Shown here piece after piece: positions 1-28,059 of a DNA stretch of 64,000 nt (position 1 is its first letter; each line of letters begins with the position of its first letter). The notes under the pieces were generated by a model that had not been told where the DNA came from, made no database searches, and was given only the letters and a program-made list of their open reading frames with translations. The stretch comes from Psammoneis japonica (Eukaryota). Made by a program: the position numbers and the translations under genes. Location: contig QPGO01000002.1 in the NCBI GenBank assembly GCA_008632985.1, positions 558,001-622,000 on the forward strand, written 5' to 3'.

Positions 1-295
1 TCTTTCAGCTCTTGAATCTCCACCACACTTTTGCACATGCGAGGAAAGGCGCTTCTGGCAATAACAGCAGCACCGGAAGCACCAAAAAACCAAATGAAAA
101 AGGATGTCCGGGAGGCTTCCAAAGCCTCGGAAACGATTGGGGCAGCGGTGGTTCCATCCGGAATTGCTTCAAGCCGCGACTTTGTGAAAGCAATTCGTGG
201 GACTCCATTGTCACTCGGACAAAAGGAGTGAACCATGCAGGTCACGATCAGCACAACAAGAAACGTGAGAAGGCGCCTCATGGTGAACGGGACGG
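1..295 (+). repeat. Dispersed repeat X, left part (host of element B)
   Basis: Near-identical to 23861-24154. Confidence 0.9.
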
Positions 296-396
296 ACAGC
301 GCACTGCACAGCTGAACAAATTACCCCGCAGTCGCTTGCTAGAGAGTGAAGTTATAGAAAATCATTGTGACATCGTGCCACTGTTTCTAAGATTGT

Positions 397-621
397 TGTG
401 AAGATTGTCAAATCATCAAGACAGTCATTGTGACCCGCCGCTACAAAGACTTACGTCTTCAGTGCAAACGTCACTCGGGAAACTAGGAGAGCAGACGAAG
501 AGCGTCTCCTCTCCTCACAATTTTCTCTTTAGCAGCTGTAACACTGGCACCTAGAATCGCCCCATGTCCATTGTGATGTCAACATGCTCTGTCTGTTGTC
601 CATTCTCTGGATGTCACAACA
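397..621 (+). repeat. 5' LTR of element A
   Basis: Aligns without gaps to 6480-6704; TGTGAAG...ACAACA. Confidence 0.96.
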
Positions 622-637
622 CGCTTCCTCTGCGCTA
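620..637 (+). promoter_or_regulatory. Putative non-canonical primer-binding site complementary to the D-arm of initiator tRNA-Met
   Basis: Reverse complement TAGCGCAGAGGAAGCGTG resembles the eukaryotic tRNAiMet segment TGGCGCAGCGGAAGCGTG; lies at the 5' LTR boundary. Confidence 0.65.
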
Positions 638-649
638 AAGAAGAAAATC

Positions 650-1965
650 ATGTCGGACGTTTCAAGTGCATCATCGTCCTCAACGTCCGATGAGGACATT
701 CCGTTCGCCCTTGCTCCAGCTCAAGCTGTTACGGGAGCAGTTGACTTTCGCAAGAGTGCTGGACGAAAGCTGTTCGAAAATGGCTCGGAAGCATCAAGTG
801 GAGATGCACTCGACTGCACTCCAGGCGAACTCTTTTTCAGTTCCTCAAGAGTGTTGAAACCAGGGCCAGCCTGCTCGGATGGAATGACCCGACGACAGGC
901 ATTCTTGTGATACCTGAAGACCCTGAAGATCCGGACACGACGCACTCAAACTTGCTCACTGACTGTGGTGAGATCAGCATGGAACGCATCAAGAGACACG
1001 AGGAGTCGCACATCAGGAATCCATGCCGTGCAGCTCAAGATGCTGCCATGCTCGGACACTGTCTGACCAACTCAATCTCCAAGGCTGGGAAGGACAAGGC
1101 ATGCATCCACGATGCATCCCACAAGATCGGAGACAAGATCTCTGGATGTTTGCTCCTCAAGGTCATCATTCAAGAGTCGCACCTAGACATGAATGCAACC
1201 ACGAGCACGATCCGCACGAAACTCGCTGAGCTTGACCAATGCTTGCCGACGATCGGTCACGACATCACGAAGTTCAATCAGTGCGTGGCTCTCCTTCTCG
1301 CTGTGCTAAGGTCTCGTGGCGAAACCACAGAGGATCTCCTGACGAATTTGTTCAAAGGACACCTCGCTGCTTCGGATGAGAACTTTGCCAAGTGCATTGG
1401 CAACAAGCAAGAGGAACACGAGGACGGCAAGGACATCATGCCAAATCACCTCATGACGCTTGTGGACAACAAGTGCAAGAATTTGGTTCAGAAGAAGAAG
1501 TGGAGTGCGCCTGGCAAGGAAGAAGAGAAGACACTTGCTCTGGAAGCCAAAGTCGAAGGCATTGAGAAAAGAGCCAAGAAGCACGAATCTGCTGAGAACA
1601 CCAGAAAGGACGACAAGCGTGGGAAAGGAAAGGATGGTGACAAGCGAAACATGCCCAAATGGATGAAGGACAACTTGCGCCCAACCAAGGATGTGATCTC
1701 CAAGCCTGGGCACTGGAACGGTGTAAAACACTGCCACTGCCACAAGGACGTCGGAGGGAAATGCCCTGGAAAGTGGCGCAAGCACACTCCGGAGAATTGT
1801 TCACATGATCCGGATAAGAACAAGAAGAGAGCGGCCAATGGCAAGAGCGGAAACGAACGGGAGAAGAAGTTCTGCCGCAAACAAGACAGCAAACGACGTC
1901 TCAAGCTTACGAAGGCATACGAGGCAGTGGTCGACAAGGAGCCATCGGACGACGAATCCGAATGA
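650..1965 (+). pseudogene. gag-like ORF of element A, frameshifted near the T-run at ~833
   Basis: ATG at 650 (MSDVSS...FALAPAQA) continues in the frame of ORF 907-1965; C-terminal Cys/His cluster and basic tail; positioned between the LTR and pol. Confidence 0.8.
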
Positions 1966-2028
1966 CTCCTAGAGCACGGCCACAGTTGCAACTGCTGTGA
2001 TGATGGATGTGCAATTGGCGACCTTACA

Positions 2029-5000
2029 ATGTTGTGCTGCGCTTTTGTTAAAGCAACGGCTGCATTCGCATGGCAGGTGACAGCCTGCAATTGCACAAAC
2101 ATCATTTTAGCACTCATCATCGCAGATCGCACCATGGCCTGCGCTCACTCCTCTCCATCCGCCGCGGTCCCAATCATCTGCCTCATGCTCTGCTACAACG
2201 ACAACCCAGGACACTCCCCGCACTACGCACCCAAGAAGAAAAGATGGTGCAAGCTGCGGAAGGGTTGCCGCTGCTTGACCAGCAAGATGCGCCAGGTCAG
2301 AGAACAAGTGGCACAATTCATTAAAGCGATCGACACCAACACCGACTCGTCCAGAAGAGGGAGAATTCGAAGACTCCACCAATCTATGGACAAACTCAAG
2401 AGACCCAGGCGAACACGACACTGTGCCGCAGCACTGGCTGTGGTGGTGGTCGCAATGCAGGCTCAAAACAAGAGCATCATGGAGCACACGGTGACCTTCG
2501 ACACTGACTCAGGACCAGTCGGGGTTGACAATCGGGCCACAGGTTGCATGTCCGATTGCGCGGAAGACTTTGTTGGTGAATTGCGAGACTGCAACAGAAC
2601 CACAAAAGGTTTTGGCGGTTCGAAAACCACCGGGGTGAAGATCGGCACCCTGCCATGGAGATGGAACGACGACGAGGGTAGGACGCATGAGTTCAAGATG
2701 CCCAATTCGTTCCACGCACCAAGTGGGAAGGTCAGGTCACTGAACCCTCAACACTGGGCTAAGACCCAAAGGGACAGCAAACCCAAGGAAGGCATGGGCA
2801 GCAAGACTGACTCAAGGCAGGTGACCCTCTGTTGGAACCAGAAGAAACACCGGCTGACAATGCCGCTGAGTGAAACGACCAACGTGGCTGCATTTCATCT
2901 GGCACCCGGATGCCAAAAGCATGGGGCATTCTGTGCGGAGGTGGACATCGACCCAGCAGAAGAAGTCGAGGATCCTGCACCAGCCAATGAGGCGGCAGTC
3001 GTGAGCGACGATGAGGATCAAGATGATGATGCTGAGGTTGAATGCAATGCTGACGCGCCGCGTGATGAATGGCAACCAATGAACCAAGACCAGTCGCAAG
3101 ACTCAGGGTCGGCACCTGGGGAAATTGACGGGTCAACGGCAGCAGATTTCAACTTAGACGGACCACCGTTGGATGGCAAGCAAGAGGGAGACACGGGCAC
3201 CATGCCAAGTTCCACCTCAGAGGGAGCAGCCGTCAAGCCACCAGCAGTGGTGGAAGATGAAGAGGATTGCCAAGGCTCTGCCGAGGCATCACTGCTCCTA
3301 CGATGCCATCAACAATTCGGCCACATGAGTTTTACAAAACTGCAATGGATGGCAAGATTGGGCACACTGCCAAAGAAGCTGGCAAAATGCAATGCACCCG
3401 TCTGCTCTGCGTGCTTGTGTGCCAAGGCCACTGAGCGCAAGTGGCGAGACAAGACACGACGCAAACAGCAACCGACGGAAAAACCCACACACCCAGGCCA
3501 AGTCGTCTCCGTAGACCAACTTGCATCTCCTGCACCGGGGTTGATTGCTCAAATGACCGGATGGCCAACCACCAAATGGCGCAAGTGTGCTGCGGTGTAC
3601 GTTGATCAATGCTCCAAAATGGGGTGCGTGCACCTGCAAAAGACGGCATCGGCAGCGGAGACGTCAGAAGGGAAACAAGCTTTCGAGCAATGCGCCAAGA
3701 CATGTGGCGTTACAGTCGAAGCCCACCATGCAGACAATGGTGTCTTCAAGGCTGACGACTGGGCATTTGCATGTCGATCACAAGGACAACGGCTCACCTT
3801 CGCAGCGGCAGGCGCTCACCACCAGAACGGCTTGGCCGAGCGTCGCACACGCGAGCTCCAAGAACTCGCCAGGAGCATGTTAACACACGCTCAAAGCCGG
3901 TGGAAGAAAGCAATCACAGCGAATCTGTGGCCTCATGCAATGAGGATGGCCAACGACGCGATTAACAACGCACCGAGTTTCCAAAACAAGGACAGGTTGT
4001 CCCCCATGCAAATGTTCTCCAAGACCCGAGTCTCTGCCAACCCAAAACACTGGAAACCCTTCGGATGCCCAGTGTACGTTCTTGACAGCGCCTTGCAATC
4101 CAACCTGCCACACCACAAATGGAAGCAACGATCAAGGGTCGGAGTCTGTCCAGGCCAAAGCCCAACACATGGAAAGAATGTGGCGCTCGTGCTGGATCGA
4201 GCGACTGCTCTAGTTGGCCCACAATTCCATGTCAAGTTTGATCCCTCCTTCCACACGGCATGGCAAGACAAGCTGGACTCGCAATGGCAAATCAAAGCCG
4301 GCTTCACAGCTCAGAGGGAGGCAACGAAAGCCAACACTGGTGGAGCAGCCAAAACGGCGTCCACACCAGCTCCAACCACGAAGAAGCGGAAAGCAAATTC
4401 AGAGGGAGCTGGGCGAGGCAAGAAACGACAAAAACGAGTTCAATGGGCTGACCTAAATCTGGGACCGCAACAGAGCGGAAACACTGCAGCAGCCACTGGC
4501 CAAGTGGCGTCGAGGCAAGACAGTCCACACGCACAACCTCAGGAAGACGAGGGTGGACCTGCGCCAGCGACTGAATCTCTAGAAGCAGCTCCAGGAGAGC
4601 GCGAGTCTGACGAGACACGAAACGGCACCAATGCACCAAAAGTGACTCGCTCAGGGCGAAAGAGCCAACCGGTCAGCAGACTGACAGAAGCTGTGACGGC
4701 CGAAATCAGTTCCGAAACAAGAAACGATGTCGAGGGTGAGACATTGTGTTTGGCAGCAATGCACCCCCAAGACTCACAAGAACTTAGAAAGACAAGAATC
4801 CCCTCCTTGCCTGTAAAGAATCAGCAGATCCAGACACCATGCACATGCACCAGGCTGTGAAGGAACCGGATCGCGTGCAGTTCCTGAAAGCCATGCAAAA
4901 GGAGGTAACGGATCAAATGGAAAATGGCAATTTCTCCATTGTTCCACGATCACAGGTGAAAAGAGACAGCAAGGTGCTGCCAGCGGTGTGGCAGATGAAG

Positions 5001-6440
5001 CGCAAGCGCGACATTAAGACTCGCAAGGTCAAGAAGTGGAAGGCTCGCTTGAATGTCGACGGTTCAAAAATGAGGAAAGGAAAGGATTGTGAAGAGACGC
5101 ACGCACCGGCAGCATCACGAAACTCAATTCAAATGTCACTTGCCCTGACAGCAATGAACGGGTGGCACTCCAAGCAATTGGACTACATTTTAGCCTTCCC
5201 TCAAGCGCCGGCAGACAAGGAGCTCTGCATGGAAACACCAGCGGGCTTCGAGTTAGTCGACGGCAACACCAAGGATTATGTCCTGAAGCTCCATCAAAAT
5301 GCATGCGGTCAAAAACAGGCTGGCAGAGTTTGGAACAAATGTCTGGTCAACAAGCTCATCAACAAGCTTGGTTTCGAGCAGTCCAAGGTTGATGAGTGCG
5401 TGTTCTATCGTGGGAAAACCATTTGCCTTCTGTGTGCAGACGACTCGCTGATTGCCGGTCCTGATGAGAGAGAAATTAATCAGATCATCAAGGAACTCAA
5501 GGAGGCAAAACTCGACATTACTGTGGAAGGGGACATGCAGGATTTTCTCGGCATCAACATCGTGAGGAAGAACGATGGCACGGTCCACTTGGCGCAACCA
5601 CACTCAATCGATCAGATGCTCAAGGACTTACGACTGGATTCACCAAGTGCCGCACCCAAGGACACTCCGGCGGCATCCTCCAAGATGCCATTAAGGCATT
5701 CCGATTCAGAGCCGTTTGATGATTCCTTCAACTGCCGATCGGTTGTTGGCAAGCTGAATTGCTTGGAAAAATGTGCTCGAAGCGACACAGCGTGCATCAC
5801 CCACCAATGTGCACGGTTCACTGCAGCTCCCAAGGTTGAGCATGCCAAAGCCATGTGGTGGCTTGGCAGATGTTTGTACAAGACCAGAGACAAGGGTGCA
5901 GTCCTGAAACCTGCAAAGGGAAAGGACTTAGAGGTTTACGTGGATGCAGATTTTAGCGGGAATTGGGACCCACGAGAGGCAAGCCAAGACCGAGATGCAG
6001 CACGTTCTCGACACGGTCATGTCATTTCTTGCGCGGGCTGTCCCATTCTTTGGAAATCTCAATTGCAAACCGAGACAGCCTTGAGCAGCACAGAATCTGA
6101 ATGCACAGGCTTGTCGTGTGCTCTACGAGAAGCCACACCCTTGATGGAAATGCTGAATGAACTCAAGCGACACGGCTTCCCTGTCAAGATGTCCACGCCC
6201 AAGATCCATTGCAAAGTGTTTGAAGACAACAGCGGGACGCTAGAGATGGCGCGCGTGCACAAGTGCAGACCACGAACCAAGCACTTGAATGTCAAGTTGC
6301 ACCACTTTCGCGACTGTGTCACTCGAAAAGAAATTTCGACACACGACATCGACACCAAGGACCAACTGGCGGATTGTCTCACTGAGCCGGTTACGGCTGA
6401 GATCCCAGAGACCTTACGTCCTCTGGTGATGGGTTGGTGA
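2029..6440 (+). pseudogene. pol of element A (protease, integrase, RT, RNase H); frameshift at ~4800-4840
   Basis: PR VGVDNRATG; IN HQQFGH..CSAC, VSVDQL, HADNG, NGLAERR, FGCPVYV; RT KARLNVDG, QLDYILAFPQA, CADD (from YxDD); RH YVDADFSG, EDNSG, DQLAD. Confidence 0.93.
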
Positions 6441-6479
6441 GTTTAGACTTTAACTTGCAAGAGACACAATGAGAGGGAG

Positions 6480-6704
6480 TGTGAAGATTGTCAAATCATC
6501 AAGACAGTCATTGTGACCCGCCGTTGCAAAGACTTGCGTCATCAGTGCAAACGTCACTCGGGAAACTGGGAGAGCAGACGAAGAGCGTCTCCTCTCCTCA
6601 CAATTTTCTCTTTAGCAGCTGCAACACTAGCACCTAGAATCGCCCCATGTCCATTGTGACATCAACGTGCTCTGTCTGTTGTCTGTTCTCTGGATGTTAC
6701 AACA
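6480..6704 (+). repeat. 3' LTR of element A
   Basis: Follows the PPT; aligns to 397-621. Confidence 0.96.
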
Positions 6705-7079
6705 GATTGTGAGTGGATCTCGGATGGAGTCGTCTTCCCGTTCCGAGTCGCCAAACACACAGTTCCAAACACTGTTTCCGATAAAACCACATGGCAAATT
6801 CTTCAGTCCCCTCAAGTCGTTGAAGCAGACACTGAATCGGCTTGATCCAATTTACACTCCGACAGTGTTTAGCCACAACCAAGTGACAAGGAAACCCTGA
6901 CAACCTGCTGAAACCCAAATTGGGAAAGGGTGCCAGTCTAAAACCATGCCCTTCCAAGAAGCGCATGGAAGGAATGCGAGCCAACATGCCCGCCAGTGCA
7001 AGCTAACATGCTTGCCAGATGCAAGGAGAAACAGAAAAAGAATCAGTCGAGGAAGCGACCATTCATTCTTCATTCATCC

Positions 7080-10000
7080 TCAATCATCACACACATCGTG
7101 TGGCATCATGCCAACAAGGCCATCTCGCTTGATGCCACCGCACATGATCTTAGTCACAAGATCAGCCGGATTGCATTCCGATCTGGCATGTCCTGTGAGG
7201 GACTCACCCACAGCTGCCGACTCCCCAATGGCATGGCAGCATGTGGAGTTAGACTTCTTCTTCAAAGTCGACTCTGGGCTTTGGGTGTTGTGGACAACTG
7301 ACATGTTGTCCCCACAAATGTGTGATGGTCCGCTGAGCAGGACTCCCATCATCCTGAGTTCACACCTTGGGCCTCGCAAAGCTTCCATGCCCTGCTTCAC
7401 AGCCACAAACTCAGCACCAAAGACTGAAGTCTCGATGGCACTCTGGCGCTTGGAGAACCAGGCAATTGATGCCATGTTCAAATGGATGAAATGACCAGTG
7501 CGAGAGCGTCTCGTCACTTTGTCATTCGCATGATCTGAGTCTACAAATGGACGTAGATCAATGTCCTTGCCCAGAGCTTCTGGTGCATTTGGCGGAATTG
7601 CCTCCTTGGTGTCCCTGCAGAATGCCTGCCAATCACATTCCTTAAAGTCAGACATGTCAACATCCGGGTGCGTTGGATCGAACGCTAACGTGGCATCATG
7701 TCTGTTCTTAAGGCATCCATGCACATGCAGGACTGCGCCGAGATGACCTTCTCCAGGCATGGCAAGGAATGAGGCAAGCTCGGACACCTCTGCTGTGAGG
7801 TCGACTCGTCCAAGTTCCACTGTCCAGCACAGGACTCCTGCCTGCGACTGGCAAAATTGAGCCCGCTCTGCATCAAGCTTTGGCGCAATGTCGAGCTCCG
7901 GTCGACAGTCGCGTGGAAACGGAGCCGTTGCCTTGCATGGTGACGTCCATCCGGGAGCAGACTCATCTAGACACCCCTCGACATTTCCAACGGCCTGTTG
8001 GATGCACTTGCTAGAGCTCATGCTCCACGCGTGGATACCGTTCGGCATTTGCACTTCACGGATCTTCGCCCCGAGGTGCATCTCAGGGTCACCGATGGAT
8101 CCGGGTTTCATCTTGAAGTGTCGGTCCAATTCCTTGAGCGCCAACGTGGCGTCGTGGTGCACCACAAGCACATCGTCGACATGCAACAGTGCACAGGCAT
8201 GGCAACGGAACCCATCATCTGGTCGAACTTGTGCCTTCATCCACACATCGGGATCAGCTGGACATGGTTCCCAACCAAGATGACGCATGCACGATGCCAA
8301 GTGGTTCCTGAAGGATGCACCTGCACTCTTCAATTCGTACAATGCGCGCTTGACTGTGGCACGCTTCCCAGCATTGGGTCCAAACTCAGGTCCCAGAGTT
8401 GTGGTGATCTTCTCGCTGTCAGGTGCGGTGATGTGGGCATTCTCAATGTCTGCAGCCTTAACCTCTGAGTCATTTGGAGCCGCTAGAGCGAAGGCAATCC
8501 TTGCACTTTCACGGGAGACGACGCTTGCGCACGTCAGGGTCGCTGGAGGTTCAGTGGCATGTCCCCCTGCGACATGACGAGCCTTCCGCTTGAAGTCTTG
8601 TAGTTTGACATCAAAGACCAAGTGGCAGCGGATGTGCTGGCAACCCACAAGCTCCTCGTCATTGTCGACAATCTCAAAGGCTTTCGCAACGACTTCGATC
8701 TCCTTGTCTACGGCGTCCTGCCACAAGCGGTCGCCATTGGCCTTGTCGATCTCGACTGCCTCTTCACAGGTCTTGGGAATGCGCATCCCGTGCTCATGAG
8801 TGCGCTTGTGATGTCGCTTGTTCACAGCGGCTGTGATTTGCTGACGTTTCTTGAAGGTAAAGGGAACCCACCATGCAAATGCGGGTTCATCCTCTGTGGA
8901 TCTAGCCCTGGCATACTCTGCCATTTCTGCTGGGTTAGATTCCTTCAAGTCGGACAGTCGTTCCCAAGATGTGGATCCGTCTTTCCATTGCACGCAAAGA
9001 TGCCAGCCTTTGGCAGTCTTGCGCATGGATCGACGTCCTCGACTGTCTTGGATGAAGGCGCCCTCCTTCTTGACAGCATGCCCGTCAGTCTTGTGATCAA
9101 CAATTGCACCCGGCAACAAGTGCTGGTTGCCTTCATTGTCACACTGTGCGAACACATTCTCAGCGATGACATTCGCCGCGAATTCCGCTTCCTGTCCATC
9201 AGGAAACTCGACCTCACACACACGAGTGTCAAGCATTGGGTTTGGGTTGGCCCGTCCGGCAGGTGTGCCGCCCGGATTGAGCTTGCGTCGCTTCACCACC
9301 CCAGTCTGTTCCATGTCCCCGTGAGGCAGCAGTGCTTCTGCGTTGACATGTTGATCGTAGGCTTCGTCTGGCATGTCATCCTCATCGGAGGCACTGGACG
9401 GAACATCCTGTTCCTCTTCATCCTCGTACGGTTCGAAGGTGGGAGCAATTGCATCAGGGTCGTCAAAGTCCCCGACGGTCATGCCAGGGCCTAGCTTGAC
9501 CTCCATCAACCTGTCAAACTTTTCACGCAACGCCGTGTGCGTCTTGTGTCCCTGCTCCTCGGGAGTTGGTGCCCTGTGAGATGAGCGATGGACTGCCTGT
9601 CCATTCTCCTTGAGCATCTTGGCCGTCATAACTGGGCCCACATCCCTGCTCGGACCTGGACATCGCCCCAGGACTTCCTTGTCCTCGGGAAATGAGACTG
9701 CCGTGTCTCGAAACATGACCCAGTCGCACCAGCCCAGTTCGCACATGTGCGAGATGTCAGCCGTCTGACCAGACACAACAGTTTCCGGGACTTCGCCGTC
9801 AAGCTCATAGATGCTTCGAGCGGTGCCAGACCTGACAAGGCCTTCCAGTTCCAGGCAATCATCCCACAGGCATTTTGGGGCCTGTGACTTGACCATCTTG
9901 CGCCCAACACCTCGCTTGAGTTCACGAATTGCGCCCTCTGCGGTGTCAGACCAAGGGGTGTGTGGTTCAGTTTGTCTTGCATGGCAATCAGCCTCCCTGG

Positions 10001-11169
10001 CTTTCTTGCCAAACTGCCCCATTGTCTCTTCTCTCACCCCGTCCACCAGCATGGTGTGGGGCACGCCTTCTTGCGCGAAGAGCAACGATGACGCCTCGTG
10101 CGCTAGACGTTTTGACTTCAATGGACAAGCACGTGCCCATCCATTGGACATTGCGAACACTTGCGTGCACACATTCCCTTGCCCAGACTTGACAGAGGAG
10201 AACATGGTGTCGGAGCACATCTCCTTTGAGACACGCCTGTGTCGCAGTTGTCGATCATTGGTGCGGAAACGTCGCGACAGCGCAGGATGTAGAACCGTCC
10301 TGGCTCCACGCTGTGTCGTAACCTTGAGAGTGTTCTGAGCATCCTTGAGGCTGATGGACCAATTCTCGGCCAAACGTTCAGCGTCAACCTTGAAGCCGCG
10401 CTTCGTCGTCTTGAGCGAAGACAGTTTCATGGATGCCAGTGGCAAACGGTCATCGCATGCATTGGAAACATCACGTGACGGCTGATTCCCCAGAGAGTCT
10501 GAGGTCTCTTGAGCTGCAGTGCGCATCGTCCCCGGTCTCATGCACTCTGCCAAGAGCATCGGTCATGGCATCTTCCCTGGCGTGGAAATCAGAGGAGGCG
10601 GGGTCCCATTCCGGGGACTCACACGTGAGTTCGCACACGCTCCCGTCTTGGGCTGCATCCTCGCATTGAGACAAAGTCGGGACACTGGAGGGGAAGCAGC
10701 TCGAGACTCCCTCCAGGTCCAAAGGCACAGCCAATGAAGTGCCATTTGCGTCCTTGGCGACAATGGCATGTTCCTTGTCGTTGGGCTTTGTCAGCAGAAA
10801 CTTCGGTTTTAATGAAAGTTCCACGTCATTCAGCCACAACTGCATTGGACACAGCAAGTTGTGCTCAAGGTGTGGCACATGGACTGCTTGGTGGACAACC
10901 AAGACGTGTGGGTGGCCCGTCTGAGGATCAGCACAAGCAACAGCTCCACTGACGGTGCGCAGACGCTTGCTGGCACCTGATGTCGGGTCGCACCCTTCCA
11001 TGTCTACTGGCCTGTCATGGTCAAGTAAAATTAAAGCGTGCTTGCCTGGCACGCTCATGTCTGCATGACCATCGATGTCCGTGCGAGACTCTTCGTTCAA
11101 TGGTCCCTTAACCTTTGTCTGGGTCAAGCGTAAAGTCTGCAACGGACTGAGCCACATGACAGCCACCAT
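7080..11169 (-). pseudogene. pol of element B (PR, IN, RT, RH); frameshift near 10550
   Basis: PR DIDGHAD, HNLLCPMQL; IN CSDTMFS, TEPHTPWS..AEGAIRELK; RT FKRKARHVAGGH, ADIENAH, ALYELKSAGA, HVDD; RH FVDSDHA, CGDNMSV, NPADLVTK. Confidence 0.94.
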
Positions 11170-11175
11170 TGGCGG

Positions 11176-12593
11176 TCACTCCTTGTGACATCCAGCCTTG
11201 GGGACATGCTTGCGAGCAGCCTTGCGAATCAACGCCTTGTTGTTGCGGTTTCGATCCTGCTTGGCAGCCGGAGGCTTCATTGGCTCTTCAGTTTCAGATT
11301 CACTGCCACCTTCATTGGATGAATCGTCCATCTGAGCTGAAATGGCAGTGACCGTCTTGGTCAGAGCCTTGATCTGTTTGGCGTTACCGGCCGCCGTGGC
11401 CTTGCCGGTTTTCGTGTCACCACGTGTGTCGCGCAGCGACTTGAGCTTCTTCCCAGCCTGGGGAAACAGCTTGCTGCACTCTTTGGGAGGGCGGCACTTG
11501 TCCTCCACATCATCGGCATGAATGACAGCCTTTTCGTGTCATTGTCCGGCTTGGACTGCTTGATGAAGTCCTTGAGCAGAATGACGCAAGCATCAAAGTC
11601 GTTGCGCAACGTTGCGCTAGACACAATCTGCATCTTGACTGAGTCAAGTGACGAGTCCTTGACACTTGCAAGGAGATGGCAGACCTTGGATCGTGCGTCG
11701 ATCCCGGCATGACCACACTGGGTTGAGCCATCCAGAATCGCGTGTTGTTCAACATGAACTCGCACGCAGCGCTCGAAGTTCCAATTGCGCTTTTCCCCGT
11801 GGCAGGACAAACTGGCAAGGCACTTTTCAGCGGCGTTTGCCATGTCATCTACATTGTTGTAGGCCGTCCTGCCATCCTGACTCCTCTGGGCCGACTTGAC
11901 ATGGGCCCAACTCGTGTGTTCTTGCGTGATGCCTGCAACAATTTCCCGCACTTTGATGTCATCGGCCGTGAACATTTCGGCAGGTTGAGGGTCATTCCCA
12001 GCAGCAAAATGCGGGGCCCTCGTGATCATCTCCTTGATGGGATTGTCACAGTTGGTGGCTGGATCATCGGCCTCGGGAGCCACTTCCTGGTCATCACGGA
12101 TGACGTGCGCTGGCGGCATTTTCGTCTCGCCTCGGCATGCCCGCAGATGCTCCTGAATCGACTCGATCGTCTTCGGCCAGTCCTTCTCGATGATCATTGG
12201 CAGCGTTTTGGGCGGTGCGCAGGTCTCCTCTGTGGCACGGAAGTGTCGGTGGCCTTGCACTCGTGCAAGGTTGATGTCGACAGCTCGCAACGTCCGCGAC
12301 ATGCGCTCACAGTGACGAGCCGCATGCGCGGCGAGCTTGAGGTTCGTCTCGGCTCGCAACGGGACTGACGTCCCCAGGTTGGGTTGGGCGTTCCCTCCTG
12401 CTGGCGGATTCCCTGCCGCAGCCCCTCCTGGGCGACGAATGACCTTGCACAAGGTCTCGACCTCGTGGTCGTCGAGATGACGCAGTTCATCGACTGAGTC
12501 GATTCCCTGCTCATCGGTCAAAGCCGCGGCTGCTTGCGCGGCAAACCCCAGTCGGGTGCAGGCAGCACGCATCGCTGCAGCGACTGCCGCCAT
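11176..12593 (-). pseudogene. gag-like ORF of element B, frameshift near 11520
   Basis: ORFs 11361-12593 and 11176-11508; motifs YxGEKRNWNFE-like (CHGEKRNWNFERC) and LRNDFD, recalled as typical of diatom copia gag; upstream of pol. Confidence 0.8.
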
Positions 12594-13280
12594 GGTTGAT
12601 GGTTACGAACGGTGTAATTTGATGTTCTCGCAAACTTTTGTGTGGTTGTGTACGGAAAGTGAGTGAGGTGCGCGAACTTCGTATCGCTTTTCCACCGTTG
12701 GATAAAAGTAATCGTTATGACTACGATCAACGTGTCTACAGATAGCTGTTTATATTTAATCCACGTGGATTAATATCTGTATGGGAATTCAGATACAACG
12801 GCTACTGTTACAATCTACGTGATCGAATAATGCATGTGCCGATCATCGGCAACGTGCTCGTTCCCTGGTCTACATTGACCAATAGTGAGGTTAAATATAT
12901 ATAATTTATCAATTATATCGCGTCTACATATTCAACTTGCATATGTTTATATGCTCACTCGACGATTTCAAATCGCCACGCAGTTGCCTCCGAGATAACT
13001 TCGGTATGGAAATGGCGTCCCAGATCCAATTTTGCGCTCTGTGTCCGCGTATTTACGCTCATAAAACACATCAGGACAGTCGATACTTTTGTTATCCATA
13101 AGTATTACGGCCGAACTAGCCCTGGGAGTTACATACTCGTCAAGCACGAACGTCGTCTCACGTTCGTCGATGTTTTCATGTCATCTCTGACAAGTTGGAA
13201 CGAATGGTCGTATTGCGAATCGTTCGCAAGCGTAGCAATCATTACCACTGTCGTTACATACGGCGATGGCTCTGATAAAG

Positions 13281-13456
13281 TGAATAAATTACCCCGTAGT
13301 CGCTTGCTAGAGAGTAAAGTTATAGAAAATCGTTGTAACATCGTGCTGCTATTTCTAAGATTGTGAGTAGATCTCGGATGGAGTCTTCCCGTTCCGAATC
13401 GCCAAATATACAGTTCTAAACACTATTTCCGATAAAACCACATGGTAAATTCTTCA
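13281..13456 (-). repeat. 5' LTR of element B (TpA-rich, largely unmutated)
   Basis: Aligns to the split 3' LTR; followed on the minus strand by TATCAGAGCC (tRNAiMet-type PBS core). Confidence 0.95.
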
Positions 13457-13509
13457 CAGCACTACCGGTGTAATGCGCACAGATGCTGTACGGTGAATGA
13501 GACCGAGCG

Positions 13510-15020
13510 AGAGTGGTTTCGGACAAAACAGCACAAGAATCCAACTTGAAACTAAACAACAAAAGAAAATGCCCATGACTTGTTTTGTTTCACCATCTTC
13601 CTGTCATGACACTCATTGTGTCTTTTTCTCAAACCACCTGATGGTTTGTCACGTTCTTGTGTTTTTGTTTTCTTCTTGTGGTGGTGTGTTTGGTGTGCTG
13701 GTGTGGGGGGGAGAGACTCGACAGAGTGCTGCGCCAACATTTTTCGCAACACAAAGTGCACTTGCAGGACCCTCAACAAGCACGCCAAACATCCACAATT
13801 TGTGCTGCAATCTTTTTTGCCACATGCAACACAACAATCAGTTTGCTCCCAAAAAAGCAGCTGACTCTTGACAGTGTTTTTTCTCTCCTCGCACCTCTGT
13901 GCTTCTCTCCTGCCAAGCCAAGCCCCACAGAGGTGTGCTCTGGACAAGAGTCAAAGACCTGCTGTGTGACCTCCATGTGACAACATTTCCAGCATGACTT
14001 GTGTTGACAACAGAATGGATGATGCTGGCCAGAGGCAGTTTCTTTCAGCTTGGGCATCTTCGGGGCGGGTGCTTGTTTCTTCTTTCTTGCTTCCTTNNNN
14101 NNNNNNNNNNNNNNNNNNNNNNNNNNNNNNNNNNNNNNNNNNNNNNNNNNNNNNNNNNNNNNNNNNNNNNNNNNNNNNNNNNNNNNNNNNNNNNNNNNNN
14201 NNNNNNNNNNNNNNNNNNNNNNNNNNNNNNNNNNNNNNNNNNNNNNNNNNNNNNNNNNNNNNNNNNNNNNNNNNNNNNNNNNNNNNNNNNNNNNNNNNNN
14301 NNNNNNNNNNNNNNNNNNNNNNNNNNNNNNNNNNNNNNNNNNNNNNNNNNNNNNNNNNNNNNNNNNNNNNNNNNNNNNNNNNNNNNNNNNNNNNNNNNNN
14401 NNNNNNNNNNNNNNNNNNNNNNNNNNNNNNNNNNNNNNNNNNNNNNNNNNNNNNNNNNNNNNNNNNNNNNNNNNNNNNNNNNNNNNNNNNNNNNNNNNNN
14501 NNNNNNNNNNNNNNNNNNNNNNNNNNNNNNNNNNNNNNNNNNNNNNNNNNNNNNNNNNNNNNNNNNNNNNNNNNNNNNNNNNNNNNNNNNNNNNNNNNNN
14601 NNNNNNNNNNNNNNNNNNNNNNNNNNNNNNNNNNNNNNNNNNNNNNNNNNNNNNNNNNNNNNNNNNNNNNNNNNNNNNNNNNNNNNNNNNNNNNNNNNNN
14701 NNNNNNNNNNNNNNNNNNNNNNNNNNNNNNNNNNNNNNNNNNNNNNNNNNNNNNNNNNNNNNNNNNNTGGACATCAGGGTTGGCCACTGTCAATCAAAAG
14801 TCTAAATCTCAAATGACAGAGGCACAAGATGCATGCTCCAAAAACATCCATCACTCTTCAAACTGTGGTGCAGTGCTCACCCAACAATGAGCAACTTGCC
14901 TCTTTGTTCTTCTCTTGGCTCCTCATTCTCTGAGCCACCTTCAAACCATGTTTTCTCTGCACATGCTGGTGTGCTCAAACACATGTTGTTTTCCAAGTTG
15001 CCGCCAGAAGCTGTGGCCCC
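13510..15020 (+). repeat. Dispersed repeat X, right part, spanning an N gap
   Basis: ~13516-14096 is similar to ~24254-24879; ~14940-15020 is similar to ~25711-25777. Confidence 0.75.
14097..14767. other. Assembly gap
   Basis: Run of N. Confidence 1.
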
Positions 15021-16099
15021 AAACCATCCAACACTCCATCCAATGCTGCCAAAAGCAACAAAAGCACAAGTGCTGTCTCTTGATGCAACATTTGTTGAGT
15101 GCACAATTGTGACCAGAGCTTCTGTTGTGTGTGTGTGTGTGCACCATCCACAATTTTTTATTCCTTGTGAGGTCTGTTTTTGATGTGTCAAAGACTGAGC
15201 TCAATGTGCAATCTCAACCTCAAATGAACAGTTGCACCCAAACCCAATTGATGCATCATGCACAGGAGCAGGGTTTGAGCAGCTGGGTGGTGACAGAAAA
15301 TTCCAGTGTTGTGAAAGTTGTGAGACCATTCTTCACGAGCTTGAGCCCCCACATGAGATGCGCTGATTGTGAGGTGGACAGCTGGATCATGACTTGCTTG
15401 CATGAAACTCCTGTGGACAATGGCGGACTCTCACAAGGTGCTTCTGCATGATCAGCTGCCCCCATGGGCCAGCCTGCAGATGCAGGATGTGCTGTGCAAT
15501 CCAGGGTTGCCCGCTGCACAGTGGCGCAGGATTGTCATTGTCCAAGCCAGCCAGCACTGTGCAATTGTTTGGGCAAACAAAGCTTGACAAACAACCATCC
15601 AATCATTCTCATTAGCTGGAGCTGCTGATGGCATGACTGCCAACAATCTGGGCTTGTGCCCTGTTGCTTGTGGTGCTGCTGATGCCGGTTTTGTCATGCG
15701 CCAAAGAGTGCAGACCTTTGAAACATGCACCAGTCTGCACAGCTGCCACTGCGTGCTGGGTTGACCCAAAGTCTGATGAACCTCACCTGCTGCCAGCCCA
15801 CAAGGCCATGCACTTTGAGGCCCAGATGAAAAATTTGCTCTCATGCCTTGGCCAACTGTGCCCAAATGTGCTGTGGCTGTTCATGGCACACCTTGCCAGT
15901 TTGACAAGAGCAACACTCCTCACTCACAGCTGCATTCTTCCCTGGCTCAAAAGTCACAACCTTCCTGCAACCAGAGGGAGTTTTGCTGGCAATTGAATCT
16001 GACAAACCTGCTCAGGTGGGACCTGGACAATCTGCCATGACTGGAGCTGACATTGCTGCTAAAGTGGGAGCCCTTGTTGATGCATCTTTTGGACAAAAG

Positions 16100-16430
16100 G
16101 CGGGAGATGTCCAAAGTGAAGGTGGCGTGGAATGAGGAGGATGGTGGCACCCCAGAACAGATCGAGGAAGGCAAGAACCCAAATGTGGTCAGCTGTCAAA
16201 ACATCAAATGTCATTTGGGTGGAAGAAATCATGGCCACAAACTTCAAAATGAAACAAGCCAAACAAGTCTTGTTGCTTGACTGTGACACACAGTCAGGAG
16301 CTTTCATCATGGGCAATGGCAAGAATTTTGCAGCCAGTGTGGAGAAATGGTGGAACAGATGCAGGTGCATGCCGGCATTGTGGCAGCTTTGGCACAAAAC
16401 CTGGATGCTTGTGAAGTGCGGTTGATGAGA
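16100..16430 (+). pseudogene. Highly decayed copia RT fragment
   Basis: KVKVAW..PEQIEEGK..VSCQNIKCHL resembles the element B RT region (VAKAF..VGCQHIRCHL). Confidence 0.45.
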
Positions 16431-17479
16431 TTGCAACACTGTTTGTCCGATGGATTTGCCATGGGCCATGGCAAGAGCAGGGCGCAGCTTTTAGTTGGCG
16501 GCAAGATGGTCAAAGAAGTTGCATGAGGCGCATGATGCATCCAGTTTCCAAGAGCATCTCTTGACAATTGCCTGGACAGGATGCACAATGCAGAAGCTGA
16601 CATGCCATAGTCTAGAACCAGAACAGATGCACATTAGAACCAGAGTGGATGTGCCAAGCTCAACCGTGCCTGAACTTCGCCTCTAATCCTGTCAGCATGC
16701 AAATTGTCTCCTCCCCTTCAGCACCGACATGGAGGTTGAATGCCTTCTCTTCTTTCCCCATCTGCTCATGGGGTTTGCTGCTAAACCGCCTGTGCATTGA
16801 TTGGGCTTCTCATGGGCTTTATAAACTGACTGGTTGGAGAGTGGACGTGTGCCTCCAACGAAATTAAAGTGAGTGTGACTGCATTTCCAGACAGCGACGG
16901 GGAATGAGAGGAGCTCGGTCAAATCGGACGAAAAGCAACAGGTCAACGCATCCGCAGTGTGTCTGGGATGACCAGTCCCATCCAAATGAGGCATGTGCCG
17001 TGCCTTGACCAATTCATCCCACAACCACTGCAGATTTTCTCGATGCCATTGACGCGTTTCTGTTTTGCTGACAAATTTCGAAGCTCTCCACCGCCGTCCG
17101 TTTGGGAGAATGACAAAGCACAGTCATTCATTAAAACATTTTGGCACACACGATGGCATCTGATCATGGCGATGTTCCCAACATGCGGAACCGCAAAAAT
17201 CCAGCGCGTGCATCTCCAGCAAATCTCGTTCTGTGCATGTGAGCCATCCAGGCTGCTCCGACACACTTCTTGATTTCCTGCCTCGGGCATTGTGCATCTC
17301 GTGATTTCCGATGACAAACAACACCTTTTCATGCTGATCAGTTTGCCAGTGCAAGAAAGCACGCAGCGAATCGGCAAAGACAAGCCCAACATCGCCGAGC
17401 AATGCCAAGACGGAAGCATGCAGAACAAATGAAATTCTCTCGTGCACTTGCTGATTCCAACCCGTCAAACTGATTCCAA

Positions 17480-17800
17480 CCCCAGACAGAACACTTCACA
17501 GTTGTAACACTTTGTAAGTTGCTCCAGTCGGAAATGTAAAATGTGAATCACCAAGTCACTTGAGGATGGGAATGCCTGCTGATTTGAGTTCCAGCTCCTC
17601 ATTGGCATCTCATCACACTCTCTCGCAACTGAAGACCACAGCTTTCCTGCCTCTTCCAAGGATCTCTGCTCAACGTATTTGGCAAGATGCACGAAGCTGA
17701 TGTTCCAAGCAATGGAGACAGATGCTGGGCGAGGTGCAATCAAAGTCACATCTCCTCCAAGATTGGCAAACGTGCAGCAACATTCAATTCCTTCGGCATC
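17480..17800 (-). pseudogene. Decayed gene resembling the NLGGDA-motif family (recalled as DUF6940-like)
   Basis: FANLGGDVTLIAP...HLAKYV...LW..VA...LHFRLEQLTKCY; family assignment from memory only. Confidence 0.4.
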
Positions 17801-17899
17801 GCATTCTTCGTTCAGTTTCCTTGACATTTTTGTCTAAAGTGCTCTCAAGGTGATGGTTCCCGACCGTGTCGTCACCGCTGCTCATTGTGTCCAGCTGCC

Positions 17900-23560: not shown

Positions 23561-23860
23561 TCCAACACGTTCCGATCCGGTAAACAAAATGGTCCATCAT
23601 TCCTTTTACAAGAGTGTCTCTGTTTTCTTCCACGCCGCCTTGAACAACTGCTTAAAACAAAGAAGAGGGAAAACAGGAAGCGTCAGAAGAACGAGCTCTT
23701 CCACAAGACATGCAATGCACACACATGAGCATCTGCCAGGGGGTGCACACACACACCTTGCAATGCTCCCGGATCAAAACAGTGTGTCACCAATTCTTGC
23801 AGGAGCACCAAGAGCGCCCGACCGCACTGCGTCTCTCATCCTCCCAGAGTCGGTCCGACA

Positions 23861-28035: not shown

Positions 28036-28059
28036 CTCTGGTGGCAAGTTTGACGACAT

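What the first reader, a model, noticed from the sequence alone, without database searches (positions are those of the whole stretch)
313..13456. Repeat-domain-targeted TpA->TpG/CpA hypermutation ('reverse RIP'): candidate undescribed genome-defence system
Seen: the two LTRs of element B differ almost only at TpA. Of 17 TA dinucleotides in the 5' LTR (13281-13456), 11 read CA or TG in the 3' LTR (313-396 + 6711-6805), e.g. TGAATA/TGAACA, AAATATAC/AAACACAC, CTATTT/CTGTTT. The other differences are one TG/CA pair, one CG/CA, one AA/AG and one 3-bp indel. TA is nearly absent from the repeat blocks but normal in the gene block. Established: LTRs are identical at integration; fungal RIP (CpA->TpA) and 5mC decay (CpG->TpG) are C->T processes and cannot produce this pattern. 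Inference: a context-specific A:T->G:C mutator acts on transposon-rich chromatin. Candidates are a TpA-preferring DNA adenine deaminase (TadA-type enzymes favour a 5' T/U), a modified-adenine pathway, or biased error-prone repair. It would remove Tyr codons, TATA boxes and AATAAA signals.
Basis: partly seen in the sequence, partly recalled or inferred. Interest (0 to 1): 0.96.

Follow-up and report, generated by a model that had tools for sequence, protein, structure and literature searches.

The report
TpA-to-TpG/CpA hypermutation of diatom transposons
In this probable diatom genome, transposon-rich stretches have had nearly every TA dinucleotide changed to TG or CA; this mirror image of fungal RIP has so far been reported only in one 2026 preprint, on an unrelated alga.

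Summary
The two LTRs of element B differ at 11 of 17 TA sites, which read CA or TG in the 3' LTR. Pooled repeat blocks have TA observed/expected 0.11, against 0.59 in gene blocks.

I polarised the change with protein homologues. Of 24 conserved Tyr columns, element B keeps 3; the others read His (8) or Cys (13). Element A keeps 0 of 9. The RT motif Y-x-D-D reads HVDD in B and CADD in A. So the direction is TA to CA/TG. It affects both strands, occurred after insertion and is confined to sharply bounded domains. It is not RIP, not 5mC decay and not the elements' native composition: 78 of 79 related environmental Copia loci have TA O/E of 0.34 or more.

The phenomenon is no longer undescribed. 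A 2026 bioRxiv preprint measured TpA-only hypermutation of integrated viral DNA in Bigelowiella natans. This window comes from a probable diatom, which would be a second lineage.

New details here are saturation across transposons, a TAY (RTAY) context preference, decay faster than CpG decay, and a spared 5' LTR plus leader island. The enzyme is unknown; an adenine deaminase is the leading guess.

The parts
313..13456 (-). Copia-type LTR retrotransposon B. Its 3' LTR is split by the nested element A. ORFs: gag 12602-11361, a 234-aa ORF without a Pfam match at 11175-10471, and integrase/RT/RNase H 10562-7080.
   Evidence: LTRs. RVT_2 E=2.1e-10. 1836 homologues, the best 63% identical, including Fragilaria crotonensis Copia RT. 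Tyr content of the three ORFs is 0-0.4%.
313..396 (-). First half of the 3' LTR of B (the second half is 6711-6805). This is the mutated LTR: 6 TA remain.
6711..6805 (-). Second half of the 3' LTR of B.
13281..13456 (-). 5' LTR of B, almost unmutated, with 17 TA.
397..6704 (+). Copia-type LTR retrotransposon A, nested in B's 3' LTR. LTRs are 397-621 and 6480-6704 (94% identical). The target-site duplication is GATTGT at 391-396 and 6705-6710. ORFs: 745-1965, 1966-4860, 4788-6440.
   Evidence: RVT_2 E=2.8e-34. Tyr 0.2-0.9%. All three ORF-ending stops are TGA.
12601..13560 (.). Spared island: the 5' LTR of B, its roughly 690-nt leader and about 100 bp of flank. TA O/E is about 0.8-1.1 and CpG O/E 1.5-1.8 in 12601-13400, falling to 0.60 and 0.85 in the edge window 13401-13600. 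It lies between stretches with 0 TA (12001-12600 and 13601-14096).
   Evidence: The gag ATG at about 12593 lies within about 25 nt of the left edge.
1..12600 (.). TA-depleted domain 1. CpG is only mildly depleted (O/E 0.6-0.8).
13600..34500 (.). TA-depleted domain 2, made of old, unclassifiable repeats with two N gaps. CpG is also depleted (O/E 0.1-0.4) in 15-17 kb and 26-34 kb.
   Evidence: 11 of 12 long ORFs here have no Pfam match.
34600..52200 (.). Gene block with normal TA (O/E 0.4-0.7) and CpG about 1. It holds SET-domain, BTB, TIM50-like NIF phosphatase, ClpB-like AAA+, sulfotransferase-like and other ORFs.
52400..54500 (.). TA- and CpG-depleted repeat block lying between two copies of a segmental duplication.
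57400..64000 (.). TA-depleted domain 3. CpG O/E falls to 0.01-0.13 from 60 kb onwards.

Best explanation
The repeat domains of this genome have undergone a DNA-level mutational process that converts TpA to TpG or CpA. The genome is a stramenopile's, most probably a diatom's. The process acted in place, after the elements inserted. It hits either strand, has sharp positional limits, and runs roughly two orders of magnitude faster than background substitution and about ten times faster than CpG decay in the same elements.

It kills transposons by turning Tyr codons into His or Cys, changing Ile, Leu and Val codons, and erasing TA-containing signals. TG/CA becomes the common sink. In older repeats ordinary CpG decay adds to that sink.

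This is the same signature that was measured directly in mutation-accumulation lines of Bigelowiella natans (2026 preprint).

Shown here: direction, dinucleotide specificity, strand symmetry, post-insertion timing, domain restriction, and an extended preference (TAT > TAC > TAG > TAA, that is RTAY hit and YTAR spared).

Inferred, not shown: that the process is a host genome defence; that targeting follows silent chromatin, DNA methylation or small RNAs rather than homology; and that the chemistry is deamination of adenine to hypoxanthine (read as G) in 5'-TA-3' by an ADAT2/3- or TadA-like deaminase. I put that chemistry at about 0.4. Oxidation of T at TpA followed by T>C is at about 0.2, and something else takes the rest.
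For: Direction, from conserved residues.
- At 24 columns where at least 80% of 73 full-length homologues have Tyr, element B keeps Tyr in 3 and has His in 8 and Cys in 13. 452 of 516 other conserved columns are kept (Fisher p=2e-15).
- Element A keeps 0 of 5 conserved Tyr columns (all Cys) at the 80% threshold, and 0 of 9 (2 His, 7 Cys) at 60%, against 100 homologues.
- The RT motif reads MYxLYTDD in 9 of 9 intact relatives examined. It reads CLLCADD in A and HVDD in B.

Specificity and strand symmetry.
- Of 85 replaced conserved residues in B, 28 are explained by a single TA>TG change and 19 by TA>CA. A further 7 fit CG>CA, 10 other transitions, 16 transversions and 5 multiple changes.
- 28 against 19 is compatible with strand symmetry (p=0.24).

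Timing after insertion.
- LTR pair B has 11 of 14 events at TA and no transversion.
- LTR pair A has 6 of 11 events at TA plus 2 CA/TG doubles.
- A control duplication in the gene block (50154-51851 vs 55304-56992) has 10 of 101 events at TA, 42 transversions and 1 double (p=9e-9).

CA/TG doubles, which are independent decays of one ancestral site.
- They make up 12 of 28 events in an old repeat pair.
- They make up 9 of the 30 events in the 40 best-supported rows of other copies in run X1.

Not native to the element.
- 78 of 79 related environmental Copia loci have TA O/E 0.34-0.98. The remaining one, L055, has 0.03.
- None of the 73 homologues of B lacks Tyr.

Domains.
- TA O/E changes from about 0.1 to about 0.6-1 within 200-400 bp at 12600, 13600, 34500, 52300, 54600 and 57300.

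Context. Surviving TA sites are depleted for TAT (0.28x) and TAC (0.74x) and enriched for TAG (1.5x) and TAA (1.9x). Two baselines give the same result.

Precedent. De novo TpA-only A>G/T>C mutation at about 6e-7 per site per generation in B. natans (preprint abstract, Results and Discussion read).
Against: - Only two LTR pairs and one 64-kb window could be examined, because no genome is held.
- No de novo events were observed. Rate and current activity are inferred.
- The left edge of the spared island falls within about 25 nt of the gag start codon. A chromatin boundary does not predict that. It could instead point to a mis-join between a mutated and an unmutated copy in the assembly, to gene conversion, or to targeting that depends on homology or on coding sequence.
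- Run X1 may be the sample the assembly came from, so it is not independent support. Only 40 of its 1,818 variant rows were shown.
- The ancestral residues come from homologues 55-63% identical in other organisms, so some of the 85 replacements are ordinary divergence.
- TpA is its own complement, so sequence alone cannot tell adenine deamination from thymine modification.
- No deaminase or other candidate gene lies in the window.
Confidence: 0.82

Rival explanations
1. RIP-like C>T mutation (CpA>TpA, TpG>TpA) acted on the 5' LTR and leader of element B. On this reading the TA-rich copy is the derived one.
For: A pairwise LTR comparison cannot give direction. The 5' LTR and leader island is TA-rich, with CA+TG O/E as low as 0.77.
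Against: - Conserved Tyr codons are lost to His or Cys in the TA-poor parts.
- RIP indices are the reverse of RIP across the repeats: TpA/ApT 0.02-0.4 and (CpA+TpG)/(ApC+GpT) 1.2-2.3.
- TA O/E in the island is about 1, not above it, and its CpG O/E is 1.5-1.8. RIP would not raise CpG.
- CA/TG doubles need a TA or CG ancestor.
Confidence: 0.02
2. The changes were made before integration, by editing of the retrotransposon RNA or cDNA (ADAR-, ADAT- or APOBEC-style). Alternatively the copies descend from source elements that were already TA-poor. In neither case would there be a process acting on chromosomal DNA in place.
For: Both elements are retroelements. Internal Tyr codons are more depleted than the LTRs: 21 of 24 lost in B and 9 of 9 in A, against 11 of 17 TA sites lost in B's 3' LTR and, by my estimate, about 57% in A's LTRs. 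The leader of B is untouched.
Against: - LTR pairs differ mainly at TA.
- Both sense-strand A>G (28) and T>C (19) occur, whereas RNA or minus-strand cDNA editing gives one type.
- The RT active-site Tyr is lost, so these copies could not have copied themselves.
- Old non-coding repeats and flanks are depleted too.
- Different genomic copies carry CA against TG at the same site.
- In B. natans the mutation arises in place in single-copy integrated DNA.
- The higher loss at Tyr codons is explained by the TAY preference.
Confidence: 0.06
3. This is the same domain-restricted TpA process, but the chemistry acts on thymine. T in R-T-A would be oxidised or otherwise modified (for example to 5-hydroxymethyl- or 5-formyl-uracil by a TET/JBP-type dioxygenase), mispair with G and give T>C.
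For: TpA is palindromic, so T>C on one strand equals A>G on the other. The context result can be read equally as R-T-A. From memory, from no call: in dinoflagellates 5-hydroxymethyluracil is enriched at TpA.
Against: No evidence from any tool. Modified T is normally read as T and is only weakly mutagenic. The preprint's authors favour adenine deamination. That too is untested.
Confidence: 0.15
4. Assembly or sequencing artefact: systematic miscalls or a collapsed consensus in repeats create apparent TA>TG/CA changes.
For: The assembly is scaffolded with N gaps. Repeats are multi-copy, with 1,667 contigs laid at 80% likeness or more. The abrupt TA-rich island could be a mis-join.
Against: - 376 of the 1,667 laid X1 contigs are at least 99% like the window, and all 30 bins are covered.
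- The pattern is codon-coherent (Tyr to His or Cys), region-specific and context-specific.
- An unrelated metagenome contig (L055) and 3 of 100 database proteins show the same signature.
Confidence: 0.02

Closest known systems
TpA hypermutation of integrated NCLDV/virophage DNA in Bigelowiella natans (Mettrop et al., bioRxiv 10.64898/2026.01.13.699255; abstract, Results, Discussion and term searches read; supplements not seen)
   Same: - A>G/T>C only at TpA, on both strands.
- Confined to particular regions while the rest of the genome is normal.
- A long-term footprint of TpA depletion with CpA+TpG enrichment, in clusters.
- Low-TpA coding sequences enriched in reverse transcriptase and DDE domains.
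   Different: - Different supergroup branch: a probable diatom (stramenopile) against a chlorarachniophyte (Rhizaria).
- Here the targets are LTR retrotransposons and old repeats, and depletion is near saturation (TA O/E down to 0.02). The B. natans NCLDV region has Rho 0.45.
- Here there is only a historical footprint, with no measured de novo rate.
- The TAY/RTAY context bias, the spared 5' LTR/leader island and the comparison with CpG decay are not in the preprint's main text.
Repeat-induced point mutation (RIP) of ascomycete fungi
   Same: It inactivates repeated and mobile DNA by dense transitions at one dinucleotide. Mutated tracts have sharp limits. Strong dinucleotide skews mark the affected blocks.
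   Different: - The chemistry and direction are opposite. RIP is C>T at CpA and makes TpA and AT-rich DNA. Here A:T>G:C at TpA removes TpA and leaves GC at about 51%.
- RIP indices were tested and are reversed.
- RIP is triggered by homology. Here one LTR is hit (12 of 18 sites) while its twin is nearly spared (1 of 18), which argues against simple homology targeting.
CpG decay through 5-methylcytosine deamination in methylated transposons (known from memory in diatoms)
   Same: It produces TpG/CpA excess in silenced repeats. It is present here in the older repeat blocks (CpG O/E 0.01-0.2).
   Different: It cannot remove TpA. In the young elements TA is already at O/E 0.1-0.2 while CpG is still at 0.6-0.8, so the two processes are separable. 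Some environmental Copia loci show CpG loss without TA loss (CG O/E 0.09-0.3 with TA O/E 0.7-0.85).
ADAR hyper-editing and APOBEC3 editing of retroelements in animals
   Same: Deaminase-type hypermutation of mobile elements. ADAR favours a 5' U.
   Different: - Those act on RNA or on single-stranded cDNA, and so on one strand, before integration.
- ADAR prefers a 3' G, whereas here a 3' pyrimidine is preferred.
- APOBEC gives G>A/C>T.
- ADAR is confined to animals (from memory).
tRNA adenosine deaminases TadA and ADAT2/3 (candidate enzyme family)
   Same: Their natural target is A34 preceded by U33, a 5'-UA context. TadA's substrate reads UAC (from memory). The preprint cites ADAT2 enzymes reported to deaminate DNA.
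   Different: No such gene could be examined for this organism. TAT is preferred over TAC here. Action on chromosomal double-stranded DNA within defined domains is not a known property of the family.

Membership tests
TpA>TpG/CpA regional hypermutation (B. natans type) | Substitutions are A>G/T>C and fall on TpA | tested here: met
   - 47 of 85 replaced conserved residues in B are single TA>TG or TA>CA changes, against 3-4 A>G/T>C changes outside TpA.
- 11 of 14 LTR-B events and 6 of 11 LTR-A events are at TA.
- Tyr is kept in 3 of 24 columns and 0 of 9.
TpA>TpG/CpA regional hypermutation (B. natans type) | Both orientations (TpG and CpA products), that is, either DNA strand | tested here: met
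   28 TA>TG against 19 TA>CA on the sense strand of B (p=0.24). 5 TG and 6 CA in LTR B.
TpA>TpG/CpA regional hypermutation (B. natans type) | Restricted to particular regions of foreign or mobile DNA, with normal spectrum elsewhere | tested here: met
   Domain map. In the control gene-block duplication, 10 of 101 events are at TA.
TpA>TpG/CpA regional hypermutation (B. natans type) | [quoted passage not shown] | tested here: met
   25 of 62 usable windows meet both criteria, in runs of up to 9 consecutive windows.
TpA>TpG/CpA regional hypermutation (B. natans type) | Directly measured de novo rate about 1000-fold above background, active in only some lines | not testable with these tools
   This needs mutation-accumulation or resequencing data. 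Here there are only indirect ratios, roughly 100-fold over non-YR sites in the two LTR pairs. That figure is my own calculation.
Fungal RIP | C>T at CpA giving TpA gain; TpA/ApT above about 0.89 and (CpA+TpG)/(ApC+GpT) below about 1.03 (thresholds from memory) | tested here: not met
   In the repeat blocks, TpA/ApT is 0.02-0.42 and (CpA+TpG)/(ApC+GpT) is 1.19-2.3. The direction is reversed.
Fungal RIP | Triggered by sequence duplication (homology), so both copies are hit | tested here: inconclusive
   The two LTRs of B are hit very unequally: 12 of 18 sites against 1 of 18. All affected DNA is repetitive, and no single-copy DNA inside a domain could be identified.
5mC-driven CpG decay | Loss of CpG with gain of TpG/CpA in methylated repeats | tested here: met
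   CpG O/E is 0.01-0.2 in 15-17, 26-34, 53-54 and 60-64 kb. This is a separate, slower process and does not account for TA loss. Methylation itself was not measured.
ADAR/APOBEC-type pre-integration editing of retroelements | One substitution type on one strand, present identically in both LTRs at integration | tested here: not met
   Both strands are affected. The LTRs differ at TA. Non-coding old repeats are affected too.
Ty1/Copia LTR retrotransposons (the substrates A and B) | LTRs, target-site duplication, gag-PR-INT-RT-RH order with an RVT_2 reverse transcriptase | tested here: met
   LTRs and target-site duplications. RVT_2 E=2.8e-34 in A and 2.1e-10 in B. gag_pre-integrs scores 23 bits in A, below Pfam's cut-off of 28.4. 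No integrase (rve) match at E up to 0.001 in either element. Homologues include 1,200-1,400-aa Copia polyproteins.

The most novel reading that the evidence does not exclude
Diatoms and chlorarachniophytes may share a dedicated genome-defence pathway that writes A:T>G:C changes into chromosomal DNA at 5'-TAY-3'. The likely agent would be a DNA-acting adenine deaminase guided by silent chromatin, DNA methylation or small RNAs. It would permanently kill transposons and integrated viruses. Functionally it would be the mirror image of RIP, would be widespread in marine protists of the SAR group, and would spare active or unmethylated promoter islands.
Probability: 0.35. Interest if true: 0.9.

Novelty: new member of a known kind. 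Interest (0 to 1): 0.78.

Why it matters
RIP has been the only well-known case of a cell deliberately mutating its own repeats. A second system with opposite chemistry was proposed in a single 2026 preprint for one alga.

Finding the same signature at saturation in the retrotransposons of a probable diatom would have four consequences.
- It would suggest the process is widespread in ecologically dominant phytoplankton rather than a curiosity.
- It shows that the process shapes genome composition, leaving TA- and CpG-free blocks rich in TG/CA.
- It would mislead gene callers and TE annotation. Two of the three stop codons vanish, so dead elements give long ORFs, and Pfam matches weaken.
- It offers tractable material, if the process also operates in diatoms that can be transformed, for finding an enzyme that makes A:T>G:C changes in native chromatin. 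Such an enzyme would interest base-editing work.

The TAY preference and the spared island give concrete handles for biochemical and epigenomic tests.

Tried and rejected
- **Whole genome.** None is held for this window. Genome-wide LTR spectra and a deaminase search were therefore impossible.
- **Earlier notes of this scan.** Nothing turned up by place, by words or by sequence.
- **Protein Atlas for taxonomy.** Uninformative.
- **A paralogous 'empty site'.** 1-295 matches 23861-24154 at 98%, but the right flanks are only about 76% alike, with many transversions and indels. The pair cannot serve for polarisation.
- **Classifying the old repeats by Pfam.** 11 of 12 ORFs had no match. One had weak DUF1918/DUF4537 matches.
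- **Read laying.**
  - Only 40 of 1,818 variant rows and 12 of 1,764 contig pieces were shown, so no full copy-by-copy spectrum or family consensus could be made.
  - Three X2 contigs were laid, each only in part (32-49 bases of the stretch).
  - No X3 contig was laid.
- **Naming the organisms behind the three Tyr-depleted database proteins.** No names were returned.
- **Literature.** The searches, with passages read in PMC4504042, PMC2806351 and PMC3145265, found no report of TpA hypermutation or TA-depleted transposons in diatoms. Only the B. natans preprint reports the phenomenon. The library lacks most subscription journals.
- **Preprint supplements.** Tables S2 and S6-S11 may hold flanking-base contexts or a species comparison.
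- **Ideas considered and dropped.**
  - GC-biased gene conversion: not specific to TpA.
  - Selection against stop codons or for nucleosome positioning: cannot explain loss of catalytic Tyr.
  - 6mA-based decay: from memory, known eukaryotic 6mA lies at ApT in active genes.

Full report
**1. What the window is**

It is a eukaryotic window of 64 kb with two N gaps, 14097-14767 and 24880-25710. No genome is held for it.

The gene block at about 34.6-52.2 kb carries compact ORFs: SET-domain, BTB, a TIM50-like NIF phosphatase, a ClpB-like AAA+ protein and others. The NIF protein's best database relatives are 72% identical. Named ones are diatoms: Cylindrotheca fusiformis and C. closterium, both about 67%. 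The retrotransposon proteins are 62-63% identical to Copia elements of the diatom Fragilaria crotonensis.

I therefore treat the organism as a stramenopile, most probably a diatom, with the species undetermined. It is not Bigelowiella natans. That follows from these identities and is an inference.

**2. Anatomy of the finding**

Element B (313-13456, minus strand) is a Copia-type LTR retrotransposon.
- It has 176-bp LTRs and a target-site duplication, (A)CAGC.
- A contig of run X1 joins 306 to 13459. That is an empty site, so the insertion is real and perhaps polymorphic.
- Its 3' LTR is split by a second Copia element, A (397-6704, plus strand). A has 225-bp LTRs that are 94% identical and a target-site duplication GATTGT.

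**3.

The B LTR alignment has 161 matches, 15 mismatch columns and one 3-bp indel.
- The 5' LTR has 17 TA and the 3' LTR has 6.
- Eleven sites are TA in the 5' LTR and CA (6) or TG (5) in the 3' LTR.
- The rest are one CA/TG double, one CG/CA and one G/A.
- TA dinucleotides changed in 11 of 17 cases, against 4 of 142 other columns (p=5e-10).

Across the window, TA O/E per kb is 0.02-0.27 in the repeat blocks and 0.40-0.73 in the gene block.
- Pooled repeat blocks: 270 TA in 40,601 bp, O/E 0.11, CA 1.62, TG 1.67, CG 0.52.
- Pooled normal blocks: 890 TA in 21,162 bp, O/E 0.59, CG 1.03.
- The oldest blocks (26-34 kb, 60-64 kb) are almost free of both TA and CG and consist largely of TG/CA-rich sequence.

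**4. Direction of change**

A pairwise LTR comparison cannot say which LTR changed. I polarised the change in three ways.

(a) Conserved residues.
- Against 73 full-length homologues, B's pol ORF keeps Tyr at 3 of 24 columns where at least 80% of homologues have Tyr. The others are His (8) or Cys (13).
- Every other residue class is kept at 56-100%; in total 452 of 516 such columns are kept (p=2e-15).
- Against 100 homologues, A's RT/RNase H ORF keeps Tyr at 0 of 5 such columns (all Cys), and at 0 of 9 (2 His, 7 Cys) with a 60% threshold.
- The RT active-site block reads MYxLYTDD in 9 of 9 intact environmental relatives examined. It reads CLLCADD in A and HVDD in B.
- Tyr makes up 0-0.9% of the six TE ORFs, against 1.6-4.4% of eight host ORFs.

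(b) CA-against-TG adjacent doubles. These need a TA or CG ancestor that decayed independently in two copies.
- They are 12 of 28 events in an old repeat pair, 2 of 11 in LTR A and 1 of 14 in LTR B. In the gene-block control they are 1 of 101.
- They are also 9 of the 30 events in the 40 best-supported variant rows of other genomic copies in run X1.
- For LTR A, the counts are 2 shared TA, 6 one-sided losses and 2 doubles. They fit independent loss of about 57% of some 12 ancestral TA per LTR. CpG loss there is far too rare (1 difference among 8-9 CpG) to explain the doubles. This is my own calculation.

(c) The elements are not natively TA-poor.
- 78 of 79 related environmental Copia loci have TA O/E 0.34-0.98.
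- None of the 73 homologues of B lacks Tyr. Their median is 31 of 35 Tyr columns kept, against 4 of 35 in B.

The direction is therefore TA>CA/TG.

**5. Properties of the process**

- *Specificity.* Of 85 replaced conserved residues in B, 47 are single TpA changes (28 TA>TG, 19 TA>CA). Seven are CpG>CpA, 10 other transitions, 16 transversions and 5 multiple. Only 3-4 A>G/T>C changes lie outside TpA, although non-TpA A/T sites are far more numerous.
- *Strand.* 28 against 19 on the sense strand is compatible with symmetry (p=0.24). This excludes editing of the RNA or of one cDNA strand.
- *Timing.* The LTR pairs show that much of the change happened after integration. The dead RT motifs mean these copies could not have copied themselves afterwards.
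- *Rate.* In the LTRs about 57-67% of TA sites are lost per LTR, about 6% of CpG sites, and about 0.5% of other positions. That is roughly 100-fold over background and 10-fold over CpG decay. These are my own estimates, based on two LTR pairs only.
- *Domains.* TA O/E switches between about 0.1 and 0.6-1.0 within 200-400 bp at 12600, 13600, 34500, 52300, 54600 and 57300.
- *Extended context.*
  - Among surviving TA sites in the depleted DNA, TAT is under-represented (0.28x the window's normal DNA, 0.29x intact Copia loci) and so is TAC (0.74x, 0.75x). TAG (1.54x, 1.36x) and TAA (1.87x, 1.97x) are over-represented.
  - As tetranucleotides, ATAT accounts for 0 of 111 survivors in A+B and 1 of 158 in the old repeats, against 9% of the baseline. 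TTAA, CTAA and CTAG are enriched 1.3- to 5.4-fold.
  - All ten tetranucleotide classes rank as expected if each strand's A is hit best in 5'-TAT, then TAC, and poorly in TAG and TAA.
  - The three TA left in the independent contig L055 are CTAA (2) and CTAG (1).
  - This preference explains why Tyr codons (TAY) are lost more completely than LTR TA sites.
  - It is a survivor-based inference, not a direct spectrum.

**6. An unexplained feature**

Within element B a 960-bp island (12601-13560) is essentially unmutated. It covers the 5' LTR, the roughly 690-nt leader and about 100 bp of flank.
- TA O/E in it is about 0.8-1.1, CpG O/E 1.5-1.8 and CA+TG about 1 across 12601-13400. In the edge window 13401-13600 the values are 0.60, 0.85 and 1.33.
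- The 600 bp to its left and the 500 bp to its right contain no TA at all.
- The 3' LTR lost 12 of 18 TA sites and its twin lost 1 of 18. Targeting is therefore positional rather than by LTR sequence or homology.
- The island looks like an unmethylated promoter or CpG island, which would fit targeting by silent chromatin or methylation.
- Its left edge lies within about 25 nt of the gag ATG, which that idea does not predict.
- An assembly mis-join with an unmutated copy, gene conversion, or targeting by homology to coding regions shared among Copia families cannot be excluded.

**7. What is known**

Full-text searches found one report of this phenomenon. It is bioRxiv 10.64898/2026.01.13.699255, dated 2026-04-14. 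I read its abstract, Results and Discussion and searched its text for terms.
- In mutation-accumulation lines of Bigelowiella natans, two integrated viral regions mutate at about 6e-7 per site per generation.
- The changes are almost exclusively A>G/T>C, all on TpA, and occur in only some lines.
- The genome has 124 TpA-depleted, CpA+TpG-enriched clusters.
- Low-TpA coding sequences are enriched in reverse transcriptase and DDE domains.
- An ADAT2-like deaminase is proposed but untested.
- Its main text does not mention diatoms or flanking-base context.

By the preprint's own cluster criteria, 25 of 62 usable 1-kb windows here qualify.

Passages read in three diatom TE and epigenetics papers (PMC2806351, PMC3145265, PMC4504042) contain nothing on this.

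The signature also occurs elsewhere in public data.
- One of 79 environmental Copia loci shows it: L055, with TA O/E 0.03, Tyr 0.0% and RT motif C..LHADD.
- Three of 100 representative homologues of A do too (P0360, P0284, P0265). They keep 0-1 of 9 Tyr columns and read His or Cys at 7-8.
- The organisms behind these are unknown.

**8. Mechanism**

The best reading is a host process that deaminates adenine in 5'-TA(Y) on either strand of chromosomal DNA within silenced repeat domains. Hypoxanthine then pairs as G. Ordinary 5mC-driven CpG decay adds slowly to the same TG/CA sink.

The steps that are shown are direction, context, strand symmetry, timing and domain restriction. The enzyme, the targeting signal and the defensive purpose are inferred. 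Because TpA is self-complementary, modification of thymine in R-T-A that gives T>C fits the sequence data equally well.

**9. Verdict**

- The claim of being undescribed is overtaken by one very recent preprint in another lineage.
- I classify this as a new member of a known, very newly described kind, in a probable diatom. It adds four details worth following up: saturation of LTR retrotransposons, the TAY/RTAY preference, decay faster than CpG decay, and the spared promoter-like island.

Noticed in passing
window 12601-13560: A sharp island of normal TA and high CpG covers the 5' LTR, the leader and about 100 bp of flank of element B. Its left edge is within about 25 nt of the gag ATG. Whether it is a protected promoter, a gene-conversion tract or an assembly mis-join is unresolved.
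   Followed up: partly
window 49829-51851 vs 54903-56992: A segmental duplication (87-93% identical) of a gene-block segment that includes an aspartyl-protease-like ORF. The two copies are separated by a TA/CpG-depleted repeat block. Its substitution spectrum is ordinary (42 of 101 events are transversions), and it served as my control.
   Followed up: partly
window 1-295 vs 23861-24154: A 98.3% identical duplicate of the left flank of element B. It looks like the 5' end of a minus-strand ORF starting near 291. It has only 1 TA in 295 bp but normal CpG. The sequences to the right of the two copies diverge.
   Followed up: partly
window 46073-49341: A ClpB-like AAA+ gene is read in three pieces: a frame change near 47326-47392 and an in-frame stop at 48214-48216. 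Short introns are likely. I built no gene model.
   Followed up: no
loci L058, L061, L068, L070, L076 and others: Several environmental Copia loci have strong CpG depletion (O/E 0.09-0.3) but normal TA (0.67-0.85). CpG decay and TpA decay therefore occur independently in different organisms.
   Followed up: no
L055 (whole 2,018-bp contig); proteins P0360, P0284, P0265: Independent public sequences of other Copia families carry the same signature of Tyr changed to His or Cys, or of missing TA. P0360 is a 2,061-aa ORF, plausibly long because TAA and TAG stops have been erased. The source organisms are unknown.
   Followed up: partly
window 745-6440 and 7080-12602: TA loss removes TAA and TAG. 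The three ORF-ending stops in element A are all TGA, and dead elements show long open frames. The reverse transcriptase match is weak in B (RVT_2 E=2e-10), and neither element gave an integrase (rve) match at E up to 0.001. This is a trap for automatic gene and TE annotation.
   Followed up: partly
window 27589-28036, 58073-58521 (inverted) and the 107-nt units at 27590/27927/58077/58411: An old repeat family is present in two distant depleted domains, with internal repeats of about 107 nt at a spacing of about 337 nt. Its type is unknown.
   Followed up: no
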